In this document: in pieces, positions 3,083-60,086 of the stretch
Numbering within the stretch: the stretch's first letter is position 1
Layout: each line of letters opens with the position of its first letter
Virus record (IMG/VR): IMGVR_UViG_3300047476_001680
Coordinates: 24,751-88,750 of that record
DNA from: a virus
Length of the DNA stretch: 64,000 nucleotides
Strand: one strand, 5' to 3'
The notes under the pieces: model-generated
What the model saw: the letters and a program-made list of their open reading frames with translations, nothing else
The model's database searches: none
What the model was told of the DNA's origin: nothing
Made by a program: the position numbers and the translations under genes

Positions 3083-5441
3083 CGTAGTCTGCTAGCCAGG
3101 CCCAGTCAAAACTTAATTTAATCTTGTCGTAATCACCAGCCACTTGCTCGTAGTAATCAAGAGCATCCTGTGCCCCCTGAAGGCACCAGTCGGCATTCTC
3201 TCCCTCAGCCCTCGTAGTCCAGACTTTTAGTCTGTGACTAGTCTCTATGGTTTCAGTCTGACTATTAAAGTGTTTGAGCTTTAGTACTTCACGAAATGCT
3301 GTACGCCAGGTCATCCAGGGATTTTGATTGAAATGTGCCACACCGGAAAGCACAGGCACACTCTCGTGAGCTTGGCTTAGAGTAAAATCTATGCCGGGTT
3401 GGTTATTCTCTAGTACTAACTTTTTATTATAGGCGATAAGACCCTGATGACCATACTCCAGTCCATTAAGAATATTCTTACTGTTAAAAATATAATGTTT
3501 AGGCTGCTGGAAATAATCTGGTTGCCAATAAAAATTAAAATCTGGAGTTATCTCTAGTTTAGCAAACACTGCAAAGAACCAGGGAGTATGGCTTAACTCC
3601 GCGGCTGCTTGATAGGCGGCTGTCCTGCCATTGACATTTTGTACTCTACGCACCTTTTTACTGGCAATGTTCGCAAGATGATTGTACCAATGCTCAGCAT
3701 CAGGTTCCCCGTTACTGATATAGATTATATCCAGAGGTTGATCAATACTTAGTTTATTTTTTGTTTTGTTGATATAGGGATAATCGTAGATCTGTGTGTT
3801 GATGTGACCCTTGGCGTCACGTGGCACATAGCAAACACTGTTACTGGGACAGAAGCTGACTAACTCTCTGTCTTTATGTGACCATAGACAGACATTGTCC
3901 ATTATATGTGTATGTGATCGGTTGGTAAACAGTGCGTAGGGAGTTTTAAACTGATGCTTGCTTATTTCTTCAGTGAGATTGTCTGAATCATACTTAACAA
4001 TATCCTGAGGAAAACGTAATACTATTTGATCTTCACAGTAGTTTATGATATTAAACCAATCCAGCAGTTCAAGATCATACATCTGTTGTTTAAAGCTGGG
4101 CACGTGAATATAAAATGTATCACCACGTTTCAACACACCCGTGGGGAAACAATGTATCATTTCTCTCTGACTGCCGTCAGGATGCCAGGTAAAATCAAAT
4201 TTACTGTAATCACAAATGCTGCTAACGATCCAGACGAACTCAGTGTCAGCCAGGCTCATTATGCGCTTAAAAACATTGAGATGGTTGTCCACGTACCTGG
4301 TGCTTTTGATATCCGGAAAACGTTCTTTTAATTCTTCCAGTTGTCGCTTGCTTTCTGGATTTAGGAAATCCATATAGAATATCTGCGTGGCATTGGTGCG
4401 TATTTTCTGGCCGGCCACATATTTGATGCCGGCGGTGCCATTGTATATGGGCCCGCCTTCTCTCTGCCACTGAGTGGGGAATCTGTATTCGTAATCTGGC
4501 TCAAATCTAGAAGGGTGCCAACTAAAATCAAAGCCTGTAGTATCTATGCCAGCGGGCACTGTCCACCGTGACATATCAGGCAATGCTGTGGCAGTGGGAG
4601 TATATACAATTTTAACTCCAGCAGTTCCACGATAGATTGGCCCACCAGAACTTTGCCATTGGGTACCAAAATGATATTCGTAGTCTAGGTCCCTAAAGTC
4701 AGGATGCCAACTAAAATCAAAGCTTGCTTGGTCAATATTGTCGGGCACTGACCACCGGGACATATCAGGAAGTGCTCGGGCTGTTTGTGCCGTTTCTAGT
4801 TTTATGCCAGCTACTCCCTGGTATATTGGTCCACCCGTTTTTTGCCACTGGGTACCAAAATGGTATTCATAGGCAGGTTCCCTTATATCAGGATGCCAAC
4901 TAAAGTCAAAATTGCTAGTATCTATGTTAGCTGGTATTTTCCACCGAGATAAGTCAGCAAGAGCGTGTGCACGTTGCTCGCTGGCTAACTTTGTACCCTT
5001 GGTGCCTGGGTATATTGGTCCACCAGTGTCTTGCCATTGCGTGCCAAAATAATGCTCGTAATCACCATCAGTAAAGTCTGGGTGCCAGCTAAAATCAAAT
5101 TTTTCTTCGTCTATATGTACAGGTATACGCCATACAGACTTTACACTTTGTCTAATTACTCGTTGATCGCTTCTAAAATTATACTGTAATTGAGCAGCGG
5201 AACCTTTTCTAGCAAAATAAGTTCCACCATTGCGCTGATGCTGCGAAGGAAAAACGTGCACGTGGTCTCGTTCCCAGGGTGGTGGTTGCCAGAAAAAATT
5301 GAAACCAGTGTAATCATTATGGCCATCAAGGAACCAGAAGAATTCAGTTCGCGACAGTTCAGCAGCTTCAGCTAAACTGTTAGCAGAACGCTCAAAGGCG
5401 AATAATCCTGTGGGTTGGTTTTTATAGAAAACGTCAAACAT
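3057..5441 (-). CDS. Multidomain glycosyltransferase-like protein with four 63-aa tandem repeats
   Basis: The C-terminal domain (LDIIYISNGEP...RVQNVNG...AAAELSHTPWFFAV...WRTAFRE) is clearly paralogous to 19643-20605. Degenerate copies occur at the N-terminus and in the middle. Confidence 0.7.
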   Translation of the reverse strand: MFDVFYKNQPTGLFAFERSANSLAEAAELSRTEFFWFLDGHNDYTGFNFFWQPPPWERDHVHVFPSQHQRNGGTYFARKGSAAQLQYNFRSDQRVIRQSVKSVWRIPVHIDEEKFDFSWHPDFTDGDYEHYFGTQWQDTGGPIYPGTKGTKLASEQRAHALADLSRWKIPANIDTSNFDFSWHPDIREPAYEYHFGTQWQKTGGPIYQGVAGIKLETAQTARALPDMSRWSVPDNIDQASFDFSWHPDFRDLDYEYHFGTQWQSSGGPIYRGTAGVKIVYTPTATALPDMSRWTVPAGIDTTGFDFSWHPSRFEPDYEYRFPTQWQREGGPIYNGTAGIKYVAGQKIRTNATQIFYMDFLNPESKRQLEELKERFPDIKSTRYVDNHLNVFKRIMSLADTEFVWIVSSICDYSKFDFTWHPDGSQREMIHCFPTGVLKRGDTFYIHVPSFKQQMYDLELLDWFNIINYCEDQIVLRFPQDIVKYDSDNLTEEISKHQFKTPYALFTNRSHTHIMDNVCLWSHKDRELVSFCPSNSVCYVPRDAKGHINTQIYDYPYINKTKNKLSIDQPLDIIYISNGEPDAEHWYNHLANIASKKVRRVQNVNGRTAAYQAAAELSHTPWFFAVFAKLEITPDFNFYWQPDYFQQPKHYIFNSKNILNGLEYGHQGLIAYNKKLVLENNQPGIDFTLSQAHESVPVLSGVAHFNQNPWMTWRTAFREVLKLKHFNSQTETIETSHRLKVWTTRAEGENADWCLQGAQDALDYYEQVAGDYDKIKLSFDWAWLADYARSLRHHF
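4377..5132 (-). repeat. Four coding tandem repeats of 189 bp (63 aa)
   Basis: Unit WxxPxxIDxxxFDFSWHPxxxxxxYExxFxTQWQxxGGPIYxGxxGxK. The first Trp codons start at 5132, 4943, 4754 and 4565. Confidence 0.95.
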
Positions 5442-51881: not shown

Positions 51882-53654
51882 ATGTTCAAAATTAAGTCGT
51901 TAACACTAAAAAACTTTATGAGTGTGGGTAATGCCACACAGGCAGTTAATTTTGATCGTGAAGATCTGACCCTGGTGCTGGGCGAAAACGTAGACCTGGG
52001 CGGGGATGATGCTGGTGCTAGAAATGGCACTGGTAAAACTACCATCATTAATGCCCTGAGCTATGCGCTCTACGGTGAAGCACTGACCAAGATTAAAAAA
52101 GATAACTTGATCAATCGCACCAATGCCAAAAATATGTTAGTGACCATTGACTTTGAGTGTAATGGTCAGGAATACAGAATTGAACGAGGCCGTAAACCCA
52201 ATGTAATGAAGTTTTTTATTGGCGGCGATGAACAAGAACAAAAAGAAGATGAGAGTCAGGGAGACAGTCGTGAAACACAAGCGGCCATCGAGCACTTACT
52301 CAATATGAGCCCGGATATGTTCAGGCACATTGTTGCCCTGAATACCTACACTGAGCCCTTCCTAAGCCTCAGGGCTAATGATCAGAGAACTATTATCGAA
52401 CAATTACTGGGTATTACTATGCTCAGTGAAAAAGCCGAGTCACTCAAGGAGCAGCAAAAGCTGACCAAGGAAGCCATACAGGAAGAGGACTTTAGGATCA
52501 AGGCCACTCTGGATGCCAACAAACGCATACAGGAACAGATTGCCAACACTGAACGCAGACAAAAACTCTGGCGCCAGAAACACGACGAGGATTTAGCCGC
52601 CATACAGGCCGCTTACGATGAACTTGCCAAGTTGGACATTGAGCAAGAGTTACTGGCACACCAGGCTTTGACCAATTATAAGGAACAGATTAGAACTTTG
52701 CAGGAAAGTCAACGCTGGATCAAGAGCATAGACTCTGAAAACGCCAAGTTGAACAAGACCGTGGAGACTTTAAAAAAAGAACTAGCCGCCCTGGACAATC
52801 ACGAATGTTACGCCTGTGGGCAGGCATTACACGACAGTAAACAAGACGAGATTCGTGCTGCTAAAACCAAACAGATGCAGGAGACTGCGCTGCAAATTCT
52901 TTCCAACGAAACACAACGTGGCGAGCATCAGGCTGTGGTGGAATCTTTAAAGTCGCTGGGTGCTGAACCCGTGACTTTTTATGCTACCGAAGGCGACGCT
53001 TTTGAACACCGTAGCAGTATGGCGGCACTGCTCACTCAGTTGTCTGCAAAGCAGGCCGAGCACGACCCCTACCAGGATGCCATCACAGAAATGCGTGAGC
53101 AGGCCCTGCAGGAAGTAAGCTACGATCTAGTTAACGAACTGACCAGTCTTCGAGACCACCAGGAGTTTTTGTTAAAACTACTGAGTAACAAGGACAGTTT
53201 CATTCGCAAGCGTATTATTGATCAGAACTTAAACTACCTAAATGCCCGACTGGGTCACTACTTGGATAAAATTGGCCTACCGCACACAGTTAAATTTAAC
53301 AATGACCTCACAGTGAGTATTGAAGAGCTGGGCCGTGAACTAGACTTTGATAATTTAAGTCGCGGTGAACGCAACAGATTAATTTTAAGTCTGAGCTGGG
53401 CTTTTCGTGATGTCTGGGAGAGTTTATATCAGAGTGTTAATTTATTGTTTATTGATGAGCTAATTGACAGTGGACTGGATAGTTCGGGTGTGGAAAATAG
53501 TCTTGCATTGCTGAAAAAAATGAGCCGAGAAGGCAACAAGAGTGTCTGGTTAGTGTCTCATAAAGACGAACTGATTGGACGAGTGGGCAATATTATGCGA
53601 GTGGTCAAAGAAAACGGATATACAATTTACAATACTGATGTTGACCTCGCCTAA
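51882..53654 (+). CDS. gp46: Recombination ATPase subunit gp46 (Rad50/SbcC-like)
   Basis: KNFMSVG, Walker A NGTGKTT, zinc hook CYAC, signature LSRGE, Walker B LFIDE and VSH. Confidence 0.95.
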   Translation: MFKIKSLTLKNFMSVGNATQAVNFDREDLTLVLGENVDLGGDDAGARNGTGKTTIINALSYALYGEALTKIKKDNLINRTNAKNMLVTIDFECNGQEYRIERGRKPNVMKFFIGGDEQEQKEDESQGDSRETQAAIEHLLNMSPDMFRHIVALNTYTEPFLSLRANDQRTIIEQLLGITMLSEKAESLKEQQKLTKEAIQEEDFRIKATLDANKRIQEQIANTERRQKLWRQKHDEDLAAIQAAYDELAKLDIEQELLAHQALTNYKEQIRTLQESQRWIKSIDSENAKLNKTVETLKKELAALDNHECYACGQALHDSKQDEIRAAKTKQMQETALQILSNETQRGEHQAVVESLKSLGAEPVTFYATEGDAFEHRSSMAALLTQLSAKQAEHDPYQDAITEMREQALQEVSYDLVNELTSLRDHQEFLLKLLSNKDSFIRKRIIDQNLNYLNARLGHYLDKIGLPHTVKFNNDLTVSIEELGRELDFDNLSRGERNRLILSLSWAFRDVWESLYQSVNLLFIDELIDSGLDSSGVENSLALLKKMSREGNKSVWLVSHKDELIGRVGNIMRVVKENGYTIYNTDVDLA

Positions 53655-54501
53655 AATTTTACATTTAGAACCCACTGATGTGTGTAATCTAGAATGTCCG
53701 CTATGTGCTCGTGTAGTTGACACTGAATTCAACTCCGCACACCAAAATCATCTTAATGTCAATCAAATAAAAGCATTGTTTAGCGTGGACGAGATTAAAT
53801 GTTTAGACAAGATGTTTATGTGTGGTAATTATGGTGACCCAGCGGCAGGAAAATTCACACTAGAATTATACAGATATTTTCGTGAGGTCAACACCAATAT
53901 TATTCTAGGTATGAACACTAGCGGAAGTTTGCGCAATGTCGAGTGGTGGATTGAACTAGCGCATATTTTAAATAAATCAAAAGATTATGTAGTGTTTAGC
54001 ATTGACGGACTTGAAGATACTAACCACATTTATAGAGTCAATAGTATCTGGGATAAAATTATCACTAATGCCACTGCATTTATTCGTGCTGGTGGACAGG
54101 CGCACTGGGATATGTTAGTATATAGACATAATGAACATCAAGTTGAAGCTGCTATACAGCTGGCCCGACAGATAGGATTTAAATGGTTTAGAACTAAAGT
54201 AAGCAAACGCCCCCTAGTTAACGGACTCGAGACCCCCGTGCACTGGGTTAAGCCATCAATTACTCTTGGCACTATTGATTGTATTGCACTGCGTGAACAA
54301 AGTCTTTATGTAGATGCTACTGGTAGAATAAGCCCCTGTTGTTGGCTGGGTGCTAGAAAAAGTAATTTTATTGCCGATTTTGATCAAGTCAAGGCATCTT
54401 GGCTGTCAGACAAACCTGAACCAACTTGTTTAATGACTTGCGGCACTAGATCTAATATATCAAATTTTGAAAATCAATGGACTAGCGAGGTGGAATTATG
54501 A
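53638..54501 (+). CDS. Radical SAM protein with C-terminal twitch/SPASM-like module
   Basis: CNLECPLC, GNYGDP, FSIDG, and C-terminal C...SPCCW...CLMTC. The likely start is ATG 53638. Confidence 0.9.
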   Translation: MLTSPKILHLEPTDVCNLECPLCARVVDTEFNSAHQNHLNVNQIKALFSVDEIKCLDKMFMCGNYGDPAAGKFTLELYRYFREVNTNIILGMNTSGSLRNVEWWIELAHILNKSKDYVVFSIDGLEDTNHIYRVNSIWDKIITNATAFIRAGGQAHWDMLVYRHNEHQVEAAIQLARQIGFKWFRTKVSKRPLVNGLETPVHWVKPSITLGTIDCIALREQSLYVDATGRISPCCWLGARKSNFIADFDQVKASWLSDKPEPTCLMTCGTRSNISNFENQWTSEVEL

Positions 54502-55511
54502 AACTAGCTACCTGGCATTGGCATATAGAAATTTCCAGTAAATGTACACTACGGTGCCCACGTTGTGCTAGATCTGAAGTTCCTGACTCATTGGTGAATA
54601 CTGAGTTAAGTTTAGATTTTTTTAAAAACACATTTACCCCTAAATTCATAAAAGACAATTTAGAAAAAATTACATTCTGTGGGGATGATGGAGATCCAAT
54701 CTACGCTCACGATTTAATACCTGTAATAGAATATATCAAAAGTGTTAAGCCGGTTAAATTTGTTATCATCACTAACGGTAGTTATAAAAAAGCTAGTTGG
54801 TGGAAACAGCTTGGCCAAATACTTGACGAAAATGATCACGTACATTGGAGTCTAGACGGATGGGATCAAGACAGTAACGAAAAGTACAGGGTTAATTGCA
54901 ACTGGGCGAGTATCATTGAAGGTATAAGAGAGTTTCGAGCATCGAGCTCGGCTTATATGACCTGGGCTTGTATAGCATTTAAGTTTAATCAAGATCACAT
55001 AGAGTCAATGAAGTTAATGGCACGTGATCTTGGCTTTGATCAGTTCCAGTTGACTCTTAGCACGAAATTTAATAAAGTATATCCTGTATATCCTGCAGGA
55101 GATACTTTACAACCACGTGGTGATTTGATTAGCGACAACTATAGATTTCAACGACAATTTGAATATATTAGTGGTCGTAGACCAAGCAACGTTGGTGTAA
55201 ATACAAATCTTGGCCTTTATAATTCGGCTCAAACATATAACGATGTCAAACCGCTATGTAGCATAGGAAATAAAGGATTGTATTTAAACAGCCAAGGGCG
55301 ATTATTTCCTTGCTGCTGGGTCGCCAATAGATATAATCACAACAATGAATGGGCTAAATTAAGCGAACGTTTTGATTTAAATATTCGTTCGATAGATTCA
55401 GTGTTATCTGACCCGTTTTGGTCTGGTGATTTTGAAAATTTTCACTGGACTGAATGCAACACTAAATGTAATATACAAGTAGTAGATGAACAGTATTCTA
55501 CCGAATGGTAA
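54498..55511 (+). CDS. Radical SAM protein with C-terminal twitch/SPASM-like module
   Basis: CTLRCPRC, GDDGDP, TNGS, SLDG, and C-terminal C...FPCCW...CNTKC. Confidence 0.9.
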   Translation: MKLATWHWHIEISSKCTLRCPRCARSEVPDSLVNTELSLDFFKNTFTPKFIKDNLEKITFCGDDGDPIYAHDLIPVIEYIKSVKPVKFVIITNGSYKKASWWKQLGQILDENDHVHWSLDGWDQDSNEKYRVNCNWASIIEGIREFRASSSAYMTWACIAFKFNQDHIESMKLMARDLGFDQFQLTLSTKFNKVYPVYPAGDTLQPRGDLISDNYRFQRQFEYISGRRPSNVGVNTNLGLYNSAQTYNDVKPLCSIGNKGLYLNSQGRLFPCCWVANRYNHNNEWAKLSERFDLNIRSIDSVLSDPFWSGDFENFHWTECNTKCNIQVVDEQYSTEW

Positions 55512-55534: not shown

Positions 55535-56095
55535 ATGCCAAGTCCACAAAAAGCCAAGGGTTCAAGCTGGGAGCGAGATGTCGCAAAATATCTTAGCGAC
55601 CTTTACGGGGAAACATTTATACGTGCCCCAGGATCTGGCGCTTATGTGGGCGGATCTAACGCAAAACGCAAGGAAGTGCTACACGAAGGGCAGATTAGAA
55701 GCTTTAAAGGTGATATTGTGCCCGGGCAGAGCTTCCCACGTTTAAATGCTGAATGCAAAAGTTATAGCGATCTAGCGTTTCATCAACTTTTCACCGGCAG
55801 CGTTAAACAATTAGATAGCTGGATCACACAGTGTTTGGATGCTGGTGACGCCGGTGATGCTAATATCATTTTTATGAAGTTCAATCGAAAAGGTAAATTT
55901 ATATTATTACAAATTAAGCCATCTGACACCACGTCAACTAAAAACCACGAAAATATCTCTGACACCACGTCAAATCTTGTTTTAAAAAATCACTTTATAT
56001 ACAACACAGAAAGCCAGGGGACCTGGGTTTTAATGTCCCTGGAAAGTTTTTTTGATTTAAATGCCGCAGAGTTTAAACAACTCTGCGCTGCGTAA
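55535..56095 (+). CDS. Holliday junction resolvase (Hjc-type PD-(D/E)xK nuclease)
   Basis: KGSSWERDVA, RAPGSGA, GDIV and NAECK. Confidence 0.8.
   Translation: MPSPQKAKGSSWERDVAKYLSDLYGETFIRAPGSGAYVGGSNAKRKEVLHEGQIRSFKGDIVPGQSFPRLNAECKSYSDLAFHQLFTGSVKQLDSWITQCLDAGDAGDANIIFMKFNRKGKFILLQIKPSDTTSTKNHENISDTTSNLVLKNHFIYNTESQGTWVLMSLESFFDLNAAEFKQLCAA
55922..55973. repeat. Perfect 16-bp direct repeat TCTGACACCACGTCAA, two copies with 36-bp period
   Basis: Copies at 55922-55937 and 55958-55973. Each has an internal TGAC-N5-GTCA dyad. Confidence 0.9.
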
Positions 56096-56100
56096 TACAG

Positions 56101-56380
56101 TAGTAATGTCAAGGCCCTGTTGGTAGGAGTTGTCCTATCCCCATTGAGCCAGCCGAGGTAGAGCTCGTTGCCGGCGGATTCTTGGGTGCCAGTAAAGTAA
56201 GTGCCGCTCTAGAGCATAAATGATTCAGGCCCTGTGAAAAAGATACAACCTGAACTTCTTGACTTGCAGTATGGTTGTGAGTTAGGAGGTACCGTTGATA
56301 ATGCAAAGGCGAGAGTAGTGGGGGTACCGGTCAACCGCCTCCCAGTGTGTATACACTAGCTCTTCCAACCATAGGCTGTG
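56101..56380 (+). ncRNA. Candidate large structured non-coding RNA (family not recognised)
   Basis: Dense stacked helices containing G-U pairs valid only on the + strand, plus long-range pairing of 56270-56277 with 56366-56373. No credible ORF. Confidence 0.55.
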
Positions 56381-56383
56381 TCC

Positions 56384-56557
56384 GGACTCGTCGGAAGACC
56401 ACGCCAATTTGCCCGTATCGGGCAAATTGTGGCTGAAGGATCTGTCGGAATACCTGAGATGATATAATAGACAAGATGATATATTCTAAATCACTCTGAT
56501 GGAATTAAAAGAAGTTATCGAGCGATAGCGAAGATAACAGACTTGCGTAGCAAGTCT
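56384..56557. other. Palindrome flanked by direct repeats, AT-rich tract and GNA-loop hairpins (origin-like element or 3' domain of the ncRNA)
   Basis: 11-bp perfect hairpin at 56405-56429, direct repeats at 56384-56400 and 56438-56454, two copies of AGATGATATA, and hairpins at 56514-56538 and 56539-56557. Confidence 0.5.
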
Positions 56558-56565
56558 TAGAAGCA

Positions 56566-56787
56566 TTAATAGATAGGTTGTCCAACTTTCTTACTAGCTT
56601 CTAGATTTTCGGATATAAGCTTACCTATGAGTTCACGATCCAGAGGGCTTAATTGATAAGCTTCGGTGTAGGTCACACTGCCTCTCATCCACCAACATAT
56701 TCTCACTATTTCTTCCTTAAGGGCTTTTGCTTGGCGTTCTAGGCTATCAGTGAAGTCCTTGATATCCTCGGCCTGAGTTAACTGCAA
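56566..56787 (-). CDS. gp51-like / tail assembly chaperone C-terminal extension (probably reached by -1 frameshift)
   Basis: Only a TTG start. The frame stays open upstream through the T TTT TTC heptamer of the preceding gene. Contains WWMRGSVTYTEAYQLSPLDRELI. Confidence 0.7.
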   Translation of the reverse strand: MQLTQAEDIKDFTDSLERQAKALKEEIVRICWWMRGSVTYTEAYQLSPLDRELIGKLISENLEASKKVGQPIY

Positions 56788-56792
56788 AAGCC

Positions 56793-57662
56793 TTAACCGA
56801 AAAAAGTGCTATAATCAAACTCAATGGGGGTATCGTAATTGTGACCGCACTCCATACACTGAATTTTCTGATCAGGTGTCTTGCCCTGTTTGGCTAGTTC
56901 TCCCACTAGTTCCTGTACTTCCCTCACAGTGTTCATATCAGCGTTTCTATAGAAGTCCATTATCATTCTGGGATCATCAACTTCCGTTCCGTCGGGCGTG
57001 GTGATGGAATGTGTGCTGCCAGCCAGTACGCTGAGATTCAGATCCACTAATTTTTTTAGATGTTCTTCAGCAATTTTCTTTTTTTGATCATCGTTGAGTG
57101 TGTCATCTTGAAATGCCTGAGCCACTCTCGCTTCACTGAAGTTAGCTAGATTTAATTCGCTCAGACTCTGATAATTTTGTGGTTTAAACAGAAACGTCAA
57201 ATCCCCAATCTGATAGCTCTGGTTGTAGTCTGGTGCCCGGACGCTGTTAATCACACCATAGAGGGGTATGTCATAATTACTTTCTGTCTTGCAGTTGGGG
57301 CAAATTGTGCTGACCTCCATATTTTCACCGTAGCTGGCGATTCTGATGCCCATCAGCACAGTGTCCACATCAACGTTGGGCATCTTCCAGGCATCCTTAA
57401 TACAAGGGCAGCAACTTTCTATGACTTCTACTACAGCGGCACCAGTGAGCAAGGCGTCGGGCATCTTGAGGGTGATTTCGTTCTGCACAGTCATCGGAAA
57501 AATAGGAATTTGCCCATCGGGCGGTATTTCCAAGCTACCCTCAGGCCAATGTTCACCGCCGCTGGGCAATCTTAAATAGACCGCTGCCTGTCTAAAATGA
57601 CTCTTGAGAGGATTGTCCATAACATTGTTTTTAACACCAACCGGGGTTCGAGAATTTGCCAT
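56793..57662 (-). CDS. gp26: Baseplate hub assembly chaperone, gp26-like
   Basis: LRLPSGG, PMT..EI, DVDTVLMGIRIASYGE, CPNC and CMEC zinc pairs, and a C-terminal FF. Confidence 0.8.
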   Translation of the reverse strand: MANSRTPVGVKNNVMDNPLKSHFRQAAVYLRLPSGGEHWPEGSLEIPPDGQIPIFPMTVQNEITLKMPDALLTGAAVVEVIESCCPCIKDAWKMPNVDVDTVLMGIRIASYGENMEVSTICPNCKTESNYDIPLYGVINSVRAPDYNQSYQIGDLTFLFKPQNYQSLSELNLANFSEARVAQAFQDDTLNDDQKKKIAEEHLKKLVDLNLSVLAGSTHSITTPDGTEVDDPRMIMDFYRNADMNTVREVQELVGELAKQGKTPDQKIQCMECGHNYDTPIEFDYSTFFG

Positions 57663-57672
57663 ATTTTGATCC

Positions 57673-57680
57673 AATAAATA
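57673..57680 (+). promoter_or_regulatory. Late promoter AATAAATA upstream of tape measure
   Basis: ATAAATA core in the divergent intergenic region. Confidence 0.6.
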
Positions 57681-57734: not shown

Positions 57735-60086
57735 ATGGATGAAAACGAAAAATGGCGTGAAGCCATAGAAAAAATGGCAGAGAAGCTGGGTGTTTCTGCG
57801 GACGAAGTGGACAAACTGTTCAAGAACCTCAAGGGTCTTAACACCACTATGGCCAAGAGTGCCAAGAAAGAAGACGTAGAAAAATGGTTTAAAAACTTCA
57901 AAGAGGGTCTGGAATCCGGGGAGATGGGGCTGGATGAGGCGTACAGTGCACTAGGCAGACAAGCCAAGGCCATCAAGGAAAACACTGGTCTCACTGACGC
58001 CCAGAAAAAATCCTACATACAGAATATTGTCACACAACAACGTGCCATACAGACACAACAGAGATTGAATGTCACCGGTGAGGCACTGGGTGCATCGTTA
58101 TTGAGTCTGGGTAAACTCTATGTGGACCTCTATTTTATGCAGGCCGAGGCAGTGCTAGATCAGATAGCCACCATTCAGGGCGGTGCCAGCGGCATCAAAA
58201 TTGCGGTCAGTGGTATGAATCGCCAGCTGAGGATAGCAGCTGAAGAAGCAGCAGGACTGGCTAACGTGTTTGGTGGTATGATGAAGACACTAGCCTTCCT
58301 GCCTGGACTAGGCACAGCACTAAGAATTGCAGCACTGGCTATAGGTGGCATAGCAGAATTTTTTGGAATGGTCCAGAAAAAAAATGCTGAACTTCAAGCC
58401 AAGGCCAATGAAGTTATGGCCGAGGGTGCACAGCAACTCTTGGACGGTTATAAAAATATTACCAAATCTGGTGCTAACTTTGCCAGCGGTATTGACGAAC
58501 TAGCAACACAATCGCACCGTGCCGGTCTCACTGTCAAACAGATGAGCGAGGTAGTACAGCAAAATCAAACACTACTGGCCAAGTCAGGTCTGGGTATCAC
58601 TGGCGGCATAAAGAAAATGGCAGATGTTGGTCAGGCAATGACCAAACAACAGCAGGAAAGCCTGCGCAGGTTGGGATTTAACACAGAAGAAATTTACGGC
58701 ATATCTGCGCAGGTCATTGCTGATGCTGGGCGTCTGGGCAAGCAGCTGGATGCCAAGGAAGTGGCGTCACTCACACAAAAGTATGCTCGTGATTTAAAAA
58801 TTATTGCCGACATCACTGGCGAAGATGCCAGAAAGAAAATGGATGAGCAGCGCAAGCAGATGGAAAATTTAGCTTTCCAGGACGAACTACTGCGCACTGC
58901 TAGAACGCTGGGATTAAATGCCAAGGAGACCACAGAGTTCACGGAAAATATGACAGCCAGCCTGTCCAAGAAAGGTCCCTTATTTTCCAGTGCAATGAAT
59001 AGTTTCTTTGCCAATGGTGCCGTGGTGGGTGATGCTGCTGTGGCGCTGAGTCAGAAGAGTGCCGAGTATCAGCGTATGTTCTACGAAGCCGGTGATCTCT
59101 ATAAGAAAGGCAACATAGCACAGGCTGATGCTCTCTACGAACAGATGGCCAAACAGGATCAGGCAATCACAGAACAACAGAGTGCAATGAGTCGTGCTGG
59201 TAATTTATTTGGTGAATTTTCCGGCGCCAACACACTATTGATGCAGGAAAGACAGTTCCAACTAGGGCTTGCGGGGATAGAAAGTAAACAAATAGAAGCG
59301 AACATAGACAAAGCAGAAAAAGGCGCCGGAAAACTTAATGCACAAATAGCTGCCATAGAAACTGCGGCACAGGGGTTAAGAGTTCAATTAGAAACGGGTA
59401 TCGTGGCACAGATGCCCAAGTTTGTGGATAAATTAAATGAAGAATTAAAAAGACAAATATCGGCATTGCAGCATTATACTGGCGCTTTAGAAACTGGGGG
59501 TGGACTTACTCCTAGTACTTTCTTTAAATTCCTTCAAGATGGTTTTGATAGATTGTTTGGATATCTACGAGAAAAACTTGACAAATTATTCCCAAGTATG
59601 TCTATGCCTGGGGGCGGTGCTGTGGGCCCTGCTGCCAATGTCACCAATGTTGAGTCTGGGTCAGCTGTTAACGCCAATGCTGCATTAGCTTCAGCTATAA
59701 TGAAACTCAGTGAGTCCATTGATAAAACCGCCTACGATCGCAAAATTAAAATGGACGACGAATTACTGGACAAGTTTGGTGACAAGTATAATGTGGGTTT
59801 CTTTGAAAAATGGTACGCCAGAGATACTGCTGTCAAGAGAATTAGACGGGGCGAGGGACTTCCTGAAAAAGCAGCTGGCGGTGTAGTCAATGAGCCTAGC
59901 ATTGCTGGCGAGGCAGGACCAGAAGCCGTGGTACCATTACCTAATGGTGGAAAAATACCAGTTAAACTGGACCTCAGTGATATGACCAGTCTACTAGAAA
60001 AACAAACCAGACAAAATGACGAAATTCTAAGATATCTCCGCGACAGCGTGGATGTACAAGAGAGAATTTATAGTGTACAGAGCTAA
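57735..60086 (+). CDS. Tape measure-like protein
   Basis: Long Ala/Gln/Lys-rich helical sequence with a hydrophobic segment and C-terminal AAGGVV..P.IAGEAGPEAVVPL. Adjacent to the chaperone. Confidence 0.75.
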   Translation: MDENEKWREAIEKMAEKLGVSADEVDKLFKNLKGLNTTMAKSAKKEDVEKWFKNFKEGLESGEMGLDEAYSALGRQAKAIKENTGLTDAQKKSYIQNIVTQQRAIQTQQRLNVTGEALGASLLSLGKLYVDLYFMQAEAVLDQIATIQGGASGIKIAVSGMNRQLRIAAEEAAGLANVFGGMMKTLAFLPGLGTALRIAALAIGGIAEFFGMVQKKNAELQAKANEVMAEGAQQLLDGYKNITKSGANFASGIDELATQSHRAGLTVKQMSEVVQQNQTLLAKSGLGITGGIKKMADVGQAMTKQQQESLRRLGFNTEEIYGISAQVIADAGRLGKQLDAKEVASLTQKYARDLKIIADITGEDARKKMDEQRKQMENLAFQDELLRTARTLGLNAKETTEFTENMTASLSKKGPLFSSAMNSFFANGAVVGDAAVALSQKSAEYQRMFYEAGDLYKKGNIAQADALYEQMAKQDQAITEQQSAMSRAGNLFGEFSGANTLLMQERQFQLGLAGIESKQIEANIDKAEKGAGKLNAQIAAIETAAQGLRVQLETGIVAQMPKFVDKLNEELKRQISALQHYTGALETGGGLTPSTFFKFLQDGFDRLFGYLREKLDKLFPSMSMPGGGAVGPAANVTNVESGSAVNANAALASAIMKLSESIDKTAYDRKIKMDDELLDKFGDKYNVGFFEKWYARDTAVKRIRRGEGLPEKAAGGVVNEPSIAGEAGPEAVVPLPNGGKIPVKLDLSDMTSLLEKQTRQNDEILRYLRDSVDVQERIYSVQS

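What the first reader, a model, noticed from the sequence alone, without database searches (positions are those of the whole stretch)
56065..56380. Candidate novel large structured ncRNA downstream of the Holliday junction resolvase
Seen: this is the only long non-coding gap (about 470 nt) in a tightly packed 64 kb, and it is GC-richer than its surroundings and almost fully pairable. Helices are CGCAGAGTT/AACTCTGCG (56065-56087, within the resolvase gene end), TAGGA/TCCTA (56124-56137), a bulged stem at 56140-56186, TTCAGG/CCTGAA (56224-56254), a long stem at 56255-56289 with many G-U pairs that work only on the + strand, GTTGA/TCAAC, AGAG-TAGTG/CACTA-CTCT and AGTGT/ACACT. The apex TATGGTTG (56270-56277) is perfectly complementary to CAACCATA (56366-56373), which suggests a pseudoknot or conformational switch. 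AGGCCCTGT and GGTACC each occur twice. I cannot match it to tRNA, tmRNA, RNase P or group I/II introns. Inference: a functional RNA, such as a ribozyme-like or scaffold RNA, or a folded primer RNA for R-loop replication initiation as in ColE1 RNA II or T4 origins (note the G-tract at 56320-56324).
Basis: partly seen in the sequence, partly recalled or inferred. Interest (0 to 1): 0.88.

Follow-up and report, generated by a model that had tools for sequence, protein, structure and literature searches.

The report
Knotted twin-box RNA of lake phages
The gene-free gap holds a real gene for an intricately folded, roughly 340-base non-coding RNA that many uncultured freshwater T4-like phages share, which carries one 7-letter word twice and whose job is still unknown.

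Summary
Window 56112-56451 (+ strand) encodes a conserved, multiply pseudoknotted non-coding RNA.

- **Spread:** I found it once per locus in 172 of 208 fetched loci, mostly IMG/VR T4-like phage contigs.
- **Structure:** on a structure-blind MAFFT alignment of 34 relatives, 58 of 77 proposed pairs show compensatory changes (0 of 500 shuffles as good).
- **Core model:** a covariance model of the 228-nt core matched 99 of 100 loci full length, with 93.8% of cells paired.
- **Pseudoknot:** Cognate complementarity is 7.06 bp against 4.67±0.12 permuted.
- **Rfam:** no family matches the window. In sister versions the different 5' domain is the orphan motif Polynucleobacter-1 (RF01718).
- **Twin boxes:** two 7-nt words (56390-96 and 56444-50) are identical in 128 of 138 unique relatives, across at least 13 word types.

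Function is unknown. I favour a two-state RNA whose 3' tail duplicates upstream strands. The primer or origin idea has no support, and expression could not be tested. This scan has already reported the same family on other DNA (44 notes, at least 41 genomes).

The parts
56112..56451 (+). Whole structured RNA (minimum extent). The conserved block starts at AGGCCCUGU and ends with the second 7-nt box.
   Evidence: Conservation starts here against L001-L003, while the flanks diverge; five 1-nt indels exclude coding.
56122..56139 (+). Pa hairpin (GGUAGGA / UCCUAUC, loop GUUG).
   Evidence: All 7 pairs show changes on both sides in A4. Only 63% of cells pair there, because MAFFT mis-registers this variable hairpin.
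56140..56186 (+). Pb (CCCA 56140-43 with UGGG 56183-86) enclosing the Pc hairpin (56148-56175). The junction strands are UUGAG (56144-48) and GGAUUC (56176-81).
   Evidence: Pb pairs in 99.3% of cells, with CCCA/UGGG changing to CACC/GGUG and CGCA/UGCG. Pc covaries.
56201..56217 (+). Pd hairpin (GUGC / GCAU) with a 9-nt loop.
   Evidence: 3 of 4 pairs show changes on both sides.
56224..56254 (+). Pe (UUCAGG / CCUGAA) with inner Pe2 (UGUG 56233-36 / UACA 56244-47).
   Evidence: Pe pairs in 90.8% of cells and Pe2 in 98.2% among 99 sequences; all 10 pairs have double changes.
56255..56289 (+). Pf long hairpin, rich in G-U pairs. The apex loop holds the 5' strand of pseudoknot PK1 (56270-56277).
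   Evidence: Pf2 pairs in 93.7% of cells and all 7 pairs have double changes.
56294..56299 (+). Pg 5' strand (GUUGAU). It pairs with 56330-56335 (GUCAAC) and crosses Ph and Pi, forming a pseudoknot.
   Evidence: Pg was not part of the covariance model, yet it pairs in 93.0% of cells on A6, with 4 of 6 pairs showing double changes. On the MAFFT alignment it pairs in 99.5%.
56303..56308 (+). S1 (GCAAAG). It is a copy of part of the 3' strand of hairpin Pl, and so is complementary to Pl's 5' strand (56408-12).
   Evidence: Cognate S1:Pl-5' complementarity is 5.10 bp against 4.47±0.08 permuted, maximum 4.71 in 1000 permutations.
56312..56363 (+). Pi (AGAG 56312-15 with CUCU 56360-63), enclosing Ph (GGGGG 56320-24 with CCUCC 56338-42) and hairpin Pj (AGUGU 56344-48 / ACACU 56353-57).
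   Evidence: Pi pairs in 97.5% of cells with all 4 pairs showing double changes. Ph pairs in 98.3%. Pj covaries.
56366..56373 (+). PK1 3' strand (CAACCAUA), pairing with the Pf apex at 56270-77.
   Evidence: Alignment-free test on 88 unique loop and strand pairs: 7.06 bp cognate against 4.67±0.12 permuted, maximum 5.07 in 1000. On A4, 5 of 6 pairs have double changes.
56386..56396 (+). Box R1: ACUC plus the 7-nt word GUCGGAA, in the loop of a hairpin closed by GUC 56380-82 / GAC 56397-99.
   Evidence: The word is identical in R1 and R2 in 128 of 138 unique family members, across at least 13 word types.
56405..56429 (+). Pl hairpin (CAAUUUGCCCG UAU CGGGCAAAUUG).
   Evidence: Pairs in 94.6% of cells, with 8 of 9 pairs showing double changes.
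56436..56450 (+). 3' tail carrying box R2 (AUCU 56440-43 plus GUCGGAA 56444-50). In this phage, 56436-48 can pair with 56171-56183 over 13 bp.
   Evidence: The closing helix appears in the consensus fold of the window plus two close relatives. Family-wide support is weak.
56512..56557 (-). Two hairpins ahead of a T-rich tail on the - strand. This is a likely terminator of the gp26/orf73 operon and not part of the RNA.
   Evidence: Terminator-like site at 56557-56539; sequence.

Best explanation
Shown: 56112-56451 (+) is a gene for a conserved, roughly 340-nt non-coding RNA. It belongs to a family carried once per locus by uncultured T4-like phages; the runs that hold this stretch are labelled freshwater or lake water. 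The RNA sits at the end of a + strand gene block, directly after the stop codon of a small nuclease gene, and faces the 3' end of the baseplate-hub (gp26) operon. Its fold has about 16 helices around a compact knotted core: Pg crosses Ph and Pi, and the Pf apex loop pairs with a strand 90 nt downstream.

Inferred mechanism, about 0.3 likely: the RNA is a two-state device. Its 3' tail (the Pl 3' strand, then UGGCUG, then box R2) repeats strands that occur earlier (S1, GGCUG, box R1). Each earlier strand and its later copy therefore compete for the same partner strand. That gives two mutually exclusive folds. One has R1 displayed in a hairpin loop and S1 pairing with Pl's 5' strand. The other has the full Pl hairpin, with R2 docked on the Pc/Pb junction at 56171-83. 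Keeping each pair of competitors identical keeps the two folds balanced. This would explain why the two 7-nt words change often but always together.

What flips the switch, and what it controls, is not known.
For: **RNA gene**
- The core is far better conserved than the flanking coding DNA, and it carries 1-nt indels.
- nhmmer found it in 172 of 208 loci, one copy each.
- There is a single copy in the 88.7-kb record that holds the window.

**Fold**
- On MAFFT alignment A4, 86.9% of cells pair against 73.5% shuffled and 39-46% when partners are slid. 58 of 77 pairs have double changes, with 0 of 500 shuffles as good.
- Covariance model R1 matched 99 of 100 loci full length.
- On A6, 93.8% of cells pair against 67.4% shuffled, and 44 of 49 pairs have double changes.
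- PK1 passes an alignment-free permutation test.

**Two states**
- The box words are identical in 128 of 138 unique sequences.
- S1 is complementary to Pl's 5' strand beyond permutation.
- The word changes are mostly A/G transitions at positions 1 and 5. Such changes alter helix strength without breaking pairs opposite U.
- In the sister group, 52 of 58 R1 helices and 41 of 51 R2 helices fall on the same UUGUUUG strand, which ends the RF01718 domain.
- In the window, R2 can form a 13-bp helix with 56171-83.
Against: - No experiment or read data show that the RNA is made. The one RNA run did not cover the gap.
- The cis partner for the boxes is weakly supported in the window's own group. Cognate pairing of word positions 1-5 averages 3.0 against 2.74 permuted (p 0.006). 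The deciding pair shows no covariation: C-G 13, C-A 10, U-A 7, U-G 4.
- In that group R1's CUC cannot pair with the AGA that R2's UCU uses.
- The sister-group class was defined by the presence of the UUGUUUG strand, so that count is partly circular. That helix is mostly A-U and G-U.
- For members with rare words (for example L058 and L131), the scans that looked for a complement found none: the 7-of-7 scan of each RNA and the longest-helix list for R2.
- A partner that tolerates wobble does not by itself force the two boxes to be identical. The balance argument is inference.
Confidence: 0.4

Rival explanations
1. Both boxes are read in trans by one nucleic-acid partner, a phage or host RNA or single-stranded DNA that carries the complement of the 7-nt word. 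Two copies of the partner bind, or one binds alternately. The knotted body is a scaffold. When the partner's sequence changes, both boxes must follow.
For: Concerted change of both boxes across at least 13 word types is what a single shared partner predicts. No convincing cis partner was found. Members with rare words showed no cis complement in the scans that looked for one.
Against: No candidate partner was found. The complement of the window's word occurs once in the 64-kb window, at about 24760, with no extended match. In 128 loci the complement shows no consistent position: the largest 100-nt bin, +200 to +299 nt from R1, holds 9 occurrences. Only about 25% of this genome is in hand, and hosts are unknown.
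Confidence: 0.28
2. The boxes are twin binding or cleavage sites for one protein, for example a phage RNA-binding regulator in the manner of lambda nutL/nutR with N protein, or a host sequence-specific RNase for which the RNA is a decoy. The word co-evolves with that protein's specificity.
For: Twin sites that are identical within a phage but differ between phages are the known pattern for nut sites; this is recalled knowledge, not tested here. R1 is displayed in a hairpin loop and R2 lies in a single-stranded tail.
Against: The changes are dominated by A/G transitions at two positions. That looks like a pairing constraint more than a change of protein specificity. R1 and R2 sit in different structural settings. 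No candidate protein was identified.
Confidence: 0.12
3. The RNA is a ribozyme. Its nested double pseudoknot (Pg, Pi, Ph, Pj) is a catalytic core that cleaves or ligates, possibly at the boxes.
For: The strand order Pg5'-Pi5'-Ph5'-Pg3'-Ph3'-Pj-Pi3' is a nested double pseudoknot. I recall this topology from HDV-like ribozymes. The stretch GGUACCGGNCAACCGCC and the CCGUUG before it are almost invariant.
Against: No ribozyme family of Rfam matches, even at E up to 10. There is no P3-like hairpin. The first Pg pair is an invariant G-C, whereas I recall a G-U wobble as the usual pair at that place in HDV-like ribozymes. No internal guide complementary to the boxes was found.
Confidence: 0.1
4. The RNA is the partner or guide of the nuclease gene just upstream, which here is the PDDEXK 'resolvase'.
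For: The RNA starts within about 17 nt of the nuclease stop codon, on the same strand. In 61 of 94 other loci the nearest upstream ORF is a SegE-type GIY-YIG nuclease. PDDEXK is upstream in 60 of 172 loci.
Against: Two unrelated nuclease families occupy the spot. 28 of 94 loci have some other gene there. Only 3 of 86 pattern-fetched loci have PDDEXK upstream. 36 of the 80 PDDEXK loci show no RNA. The constant neighbour is the convergent orf73-gp26 pair, in 125 of 172 loci. SegE-type genes are free-standing homing endonucleases that settle beside conserved genes; that is recalled knowledge.
Confidence: 0.05
5. One reading: a folded primer RNA or a DNA-level origin (R-loop initiation).
For: Direct repeats flank a perfect hairpin, and an AT-rich tract follows.
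Against: The repeats and the hairpin are R1, Pl and R2 of the RNA. They are conserved with RNA-type covariation, including G-U pairs, in 99 sequences. The G-tract is a paired helix strand. The AT-rich tract is not conserved, even in the closest relatives.
Confidence: 0.03

Closest known systems
Polynucleobacter-1 RNA motif (Rfam RF01718; Weinberg et al. 2010, PMC2864571)
   Same: Sister RNAs that share the window RNA's whole 228-nt core (R1 matches 99 of 100 loci) carry RF01718 as their 5' domain. In L153 the hit is at 3738-3874 with 115.6 bits, directly ahead of the core at 3895-4104. The paper's table row gives 'Burkholderiales, fresh water/estuary' and no established function. The runs that hold this window are labelled freshwater or lake water.
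   Different: The window's own 5' domain (Pa, Pb, Pc, Pd) does not match RF01718 even at E up to 10. The catalogued motif is 141 nt and covers none of the knotted core, the twin boxes or PK1.
Large 'ornate' bacterial and phage RNAs: GOLLD, ROOL, HEARO, OLE
   Same: A large, multi-helix orphan RNA found in environmental and phage sequence.
   Different: No match to any of these Rfam families. At about 340 nt it is smaller. Whether it forms multimers was not tested.
T-box leader RNAs and other RNAs with alternative pairings
   Same: Competing helices built from duplicated strands. Each box shows a triplet followed by a purine and then A. The core holds GGUACCG; my recollection that the T-box sequence contains the same letters is not a tool result.
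   Different: No Rfam T-box match. There is no downstream gene to regulate, because the next gene is convergent. No tRNA link was tested.
HDV-like self-cleaving ribozymes
   Same: Nested double-pseudoknot strand order in the core. The comparison is from memory.
   Different: No Rfam match. There is no P3 hairpin. Ph has 5 bp where P1.1 has 2. Activity is untested.

Membership tests
Rfam RF01718 Polynucleobacter-1 | Scores at or above the family's gathering cut-off (37 bits) against the covariance model. | tested here: not met
   The window had 0 hits at gathering. Region 55900-56800 at E up to 10 gave only two noise hits to other families. The sister locus L153 scores 115.6 bits.
Rfam RF01718 Polynucleobacter-1 | Homology of the remainder of the RNA with RF01718-bearing RNAs. 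| tested here: met
   Core model R1, built only from window-type sequences, matches L153 at 3895-4104 full length (110.6 bits), and 99 of 100 loci overall.
Extended 'twin-box' phage RNA (working name from this scan's earlier notes; not a published family) | Full-length match to the 228-position core (Pe to R2). | tested here: met
   The window copy (L005 1624-1856, equal to window 56219-56451) scores 165 bits over model positions 1-228. It was among the 34 sequences the model was built from.
Extended 'twin-box' phage RNA | Two boxes carrying the same 7-nt word. | tested here: met
   GUCGGAA occurs at 56390-96 and at 56444-50. The words are identical in 128 of 138 unique members.
Extended 'twin-box' phage RNA | Pf-loop pseudoknot and the Pg/Ph/Pi knotted core. 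| tested here: met
tmRNA / tRNA | tRNA-like domain detectable by ARAGORN. | tested here: not met
   0 genes in the 64-kb window.
RNase P RNA, group I/II introns, known ribozymes, T-box, GOLLD/ROOL/HEARO/OLE | Match to the Rfam covariance model. | tested here: not met
   None at gathering and none at E up to 10 on 55900-56800.
Nuclease-associated guide RNA (omega-RNA-like) | Obligate linkage to one nuclease family. | tested here: not met
   Upstream gene families vary: SegE-type 61, PDDEXK 5 and others 28 of 94 loci. PDDEXK is upstream in 3 of 86 pattern-fetched loci.
ColE1 RNA II-type primer / origin transcript | RNA-DNA hybrid processed at an origin of replication. | not testable with these tools
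   No replication data are available. The G-run is a paired helix strand.

The most novel reading that the evidence does not exclude
A new class of phage riboregulator: a knotted RNA machine with built-in competitor strands that toggles between two balanced folds. It displays the same 7-nt word twice to capture a host or phage nucleic acid, or catalyses a reaction at those words. It would be a conserved early function of a large clade of freshwater T4-like phages.
Probability: 0.25. Interest if true: 0.9.

Novelty: new variant of a known kind. Interest (0 to 1): 0.72.

Why it matters
Large RNAs with several covariation-supported pseudoknots are rare, and most known ones do fundamental jobs. 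This one is carried by well over a hundred uncultured phage contigs. Yet the name of its only catalogued relative occurs in just one paper of the searched library, as one table row for a 141-nt piece of a sister form.

The twin words that change together are an unusual, sharply testable feature, because something must read both. Each would bear on how big lytic phages use RNA. The family would also be worth adding to Rfam as a full-length model. The SegE-type homing endonuclease parked beside the RNA in most relatives fits the RNA gene being a conserved sequence.

Tried and rejected
- **Coding reading.** A 77-aa ORF in the gap of L001-L003 is broken in the window by 1-nt indels. Rejected.
- **Known RNA families.** Rfam at gathering and at E up to 10, and ARAGORN, gave nothing for the window.
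- **Cultured phages.** blastn of the window gap and of two other family members against 50,697 phage records gave no match. The nearest PDDEXK protein in that set is 46.7% identical, in Salicola phage SCTP-2. I did not inspect its flank.
- **Exact 21-mers in IMG/VR.** They found only the three contigs already in hand.
- **Expression.** The look-up of sequencing runs listed one RNA run (X20) with a 0.08 share of words. When laid, its contigs covered only 57333-57528 and 57736-57900, not the gap. This is no evidence for or against transcription.
- **Promoter.** No convincing + strand promoter lies ahead of the RNA. The scan found 2 promoter-like sites against 2.8 expected.
- **Cis partner for the whole 7-nt word.** A 7-of-7 complement scan found no consistent site. 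Mutual information of word positions with all HMM columns gave nothing above 0.4 apart from R1 and R2 themselves. The complement within each locus showed no consistent position.
- **R2 with the Pc/Pb junction.** Only weak support. Some junctions were mis-picked by my regular expression, including the window's own.
- **Other duplicated strands as alternative partners.** The 5' AGRCUCUGU copy against the Pe2 strand followed the Pe2 change in only 1 of 5 sequences (L015), by eye on A4. GGACUUGG, which occurs twice, showed no linked change. D1/D2 (UGAC) is mostly just conserved. I treat these as similarity without shown meaning.
- **mafft-qinsi.** Failed because a component is missing. I used L-INS-i and G-INS-i instead.
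- **Bacterial and archaeal genomes.** The pattern scan gave 31 stretches. nhmmer at E up to 1e-3 kept 8: 5 clear ones on MAG contigs, and 3 weak partial ones (L212, L218, L227) that I did not count.
- **Papers.** I saw the PMC2864571 table row only. PMC10690425, which lists candidate structured RNAs in phages, I saw only as a search listing and the start of its abstract. I did not read it, so the family may be among its unnamed candidates. 'Polynucleobacter-1' occurs in 1 paper of the searched library.
Full report
**What is in the window.** Positions 56096-56565 lie between two convergent genes. One is a 186-aa PDDEXK_15 nuclease (PHROG label 'RusA-like Holliday junction resolvase') at 55535-56095 on the + strand. 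The other is a 73-aa ORF of no known family at 56566-56787 on the - strand, which follows the T4-type baseplate hub gene gp26 at 56793-57674. The window is part of an 88,750-bp IMG/VR virus record estimated to be 25% complete, and the gap sequence occurs once in it. The gap is the only true long non-coding stretch in the window, and it is GC-richer: 0.522 against 0.41. No tRNA or tmRNA and no Rfam family matches. Folding energy alone is only mildly unusual, with z about -2 on both strands.

**Conservation.** Three IMG/VR contigs with 85-89% identical gp26 have the same gap. The block from 56112 to about 56455 is nearly identical between them and the window, while the end of the nuclease gene and the AT-rich tract after 56455 diverge. 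Five 1-nt indels rule out a coding reading.

To reach distant relatives I aligned 25 PDDEXK homologues and fetched 80 loci. Iterated nhmmer found the element in 172 of 208 loci held, once per locus. It was missing from 36 of the 80 PDDEXK loci. Of the 172 copies, 12 were cut by contig ends, and the rest collapse to 138 unique sequences.

Nothing similar exists in 50,697 deposited phage genomes. In 185,579 species genomes the pattern gave 31 stretches. nhmmer at E up to 1e-3 kept 8 of them: 5 clear hits on MAG contigs, and 3 weak partial ones that I did not count. The runs that hold the window DNA are labelled freshwater or lake water.

**Structure.** From a 19-sequence alignment I derived a fold by eye and tested it on a structure-blind MAFFT alignment of 34 window-type sequences (A4).
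- 86.9% of cells pair, against 73.5% after shuffling and 39-46% when partners are slid by 1-3 columns.
- 58 of 77 pairs show changes on both sides.
- None of 500 shuffles reaches any of the five measures.

I therefore modelled the 228-position core from Pe to the second box. It matched 99 of 100 loci over its full length, including the sister group. On that alignment 93.8% of cells pair and 44 of 49 pairs show double changes. That alignment is fitted to the model, so it leans towards the model's structure. Helix Pg was not in the model, however, and it still pairs in 93.0% of cells. G-U is the commonest pair type at eight positions, so the RNA is read from the + strand.

**Pseudoknots.** The two strands change together in many lineages, for example CUUGUAU/AUACAAG, UUUGCAC/GUGCAAA and CUAAUCA/UGAUUAG. 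An alignment-free test on 88 unique loop and strand pairs gives 7.06 bp for cognate pairs, against 4.67±0.12 for permuted pairs, with a maximum of 5.07 in 1000 permutations.

A second knot sits in the core. Pg (56294-99 with 56330-35) crosses both Ph (56320-24 with 56338-42) and Pi (56312-15 with 56360-63).

A third, competing interaction also exists. S1 (56303-08) is a copy of part of the 3' strand of hairpin Pl, and is therefore complementary to Pl's 5' strand. This holds beyond permutation: 5.10 against 4.47±0.08 bp. S1:Pl-5' and the Pl hairpin cannot both form at once.

**Twin boxes.** After ACUC in a hairpin loop (R1, 56386-96), and again after AUCU in the 3' tail (R2, 56440-50), stands the same 7-nt word, GUCGGAA in this phage. 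Among the 138 unique sequences:
- the two words are identical in 128;
- they differ at one position in 3;
- they differ more, or could not be placed, in 7.

At least 13 different words occur, with AGAUGAU the commonest. Close relatives differ by matched A/G changes in both boxes. I could not find a convincing reader of the word. There is no full complement in cis, none at a consistent place in the loci, and only one chance-like complement in the window.

Two partial leads remain. In this phage R2 can pair over 13 bp with 56171-83, but across the window's group this extension is weakly supported. In the sister group both boxes can pair, largely through A-U and G-U pairs, with one UUGUUUG strand at the end of the RF01718 domain. 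That group was defined by the presence of the strand, so the count is partly circular.

**Relation to known families.** Rfam at gathering threshold on 12 family loci hit RF01718 (Polynucleobacter-1) only in L153. There it covers 3738-3874, directly ahead of the shared core. The sister group therefore has the catalogued 141-nt orphan motif as its 5' domain. The window's 5' domain (Pa-Pd) is different and unmatched. That name occurs in one paper of the searched library, where I saw one table row.

**Neighbours.** The constant neighbour is the convergent orf73-gp26 pair, present in 125 of 172 loci and on the opposite strand in 123. The upstream gene is on the RNA's strand in 90 of 94 loci, but it varies. 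A SegE-type GIY-YIG endonuclease (PF19835, 110.9 bits for the L090 example) is there in 61, PDDEXK in 5, and other genes in 28. I read the nuclease as a neighbour, probably a homing endonuclease parked beside a conserved gene, and not as a partner.

**Expression.** Not tested. The single RNA run did not cover the gap. No separate promoter is evident, and the conserved block starts about 17 nt after the nuclease stop codon. Co-transcription with the upstream gene is therefore the simplest guess.

**Earlier notes of this scan.** The same family was reported before on other DNA, in 44 notes from at least 41 genomes. My own calls reproduce those points independently. A note on this window read 56384-56557 as an origin-like DNA module. 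The repeats and the hairpin it describes are R1, Pl and R2 of the RNA.

**Verdict.** Its function is unknown. My preferred mechanism, a balanced two-state fold driven by duplicated competitor strands, is inference at about 0.3. A shared trans partner is nearly as likely.

Noticed in passing
window 56065-56087: A hairpin inside the last codons of the PDDEXK gene (GCAGAGUU/AACUCUGC). In L001-L003 it is kept through changes on both sides (GCACAAU/AUUGUGC) that also change the protein (E to Q, Q to T). It could be a processing or stability element ahead of the RNA.
   Followed up: partly
window 56457-56466 and 56474-56483: Two copies of AGATGATATA lie just after the RNA. AGAUGAU is the commonest box word in other family members, although this phage's own boxes read GUCGGAA. 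The copies are absent from the closest relatives.
   Followed up: no
window 56205-56213 (Pd loop): The Pd loop and its closing bases form a 10-nt palindrome, GCUCUAGAGC (56206-56215). Most relatives have CUUAAG at the same place. A palindromic loop could let two RNA molecules kiss.
   Followed up: no
window 53575-55511: Two adjacent radical-SAM genes (308 and 337 aa) lie upstream of the nuclease. Both resemble PHROG 21308.
   Followed up: no
L153 14865-14940: A match to the Rfam 'freshwater-2' motif (RF02980, 56.2 bits) elsewhere on a related phage contig.
   Followed up: no
L090 8834-11121: In a typical relative the RNA follows a SegE-type GIY-YIG gene, which in turn follows a 589-aa SMC/Rad50-like gene with AAA_23 and SMC_N domains. 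I recall T4 gp46 as a protein of this kind; no call compared them.
   Followed up: partly
L215 498-792, L220 4090-4377, L213, L229, L230: Five contigs filed under bacterial MAGs carry the RNA: Haliscomenobacter (two contigs), Flavobacteriales, a 'Bifidobacterium' bin and a proteobacterial bin. They are probably phage contigs binned with bacteria.
   Followed up: no
window 56512-56557: Two back-to-back hairpins sit between the RNA and orf73. They are terminator-like on the - strand, and the second could also stop + strand transcripts.
   Followed up: partly
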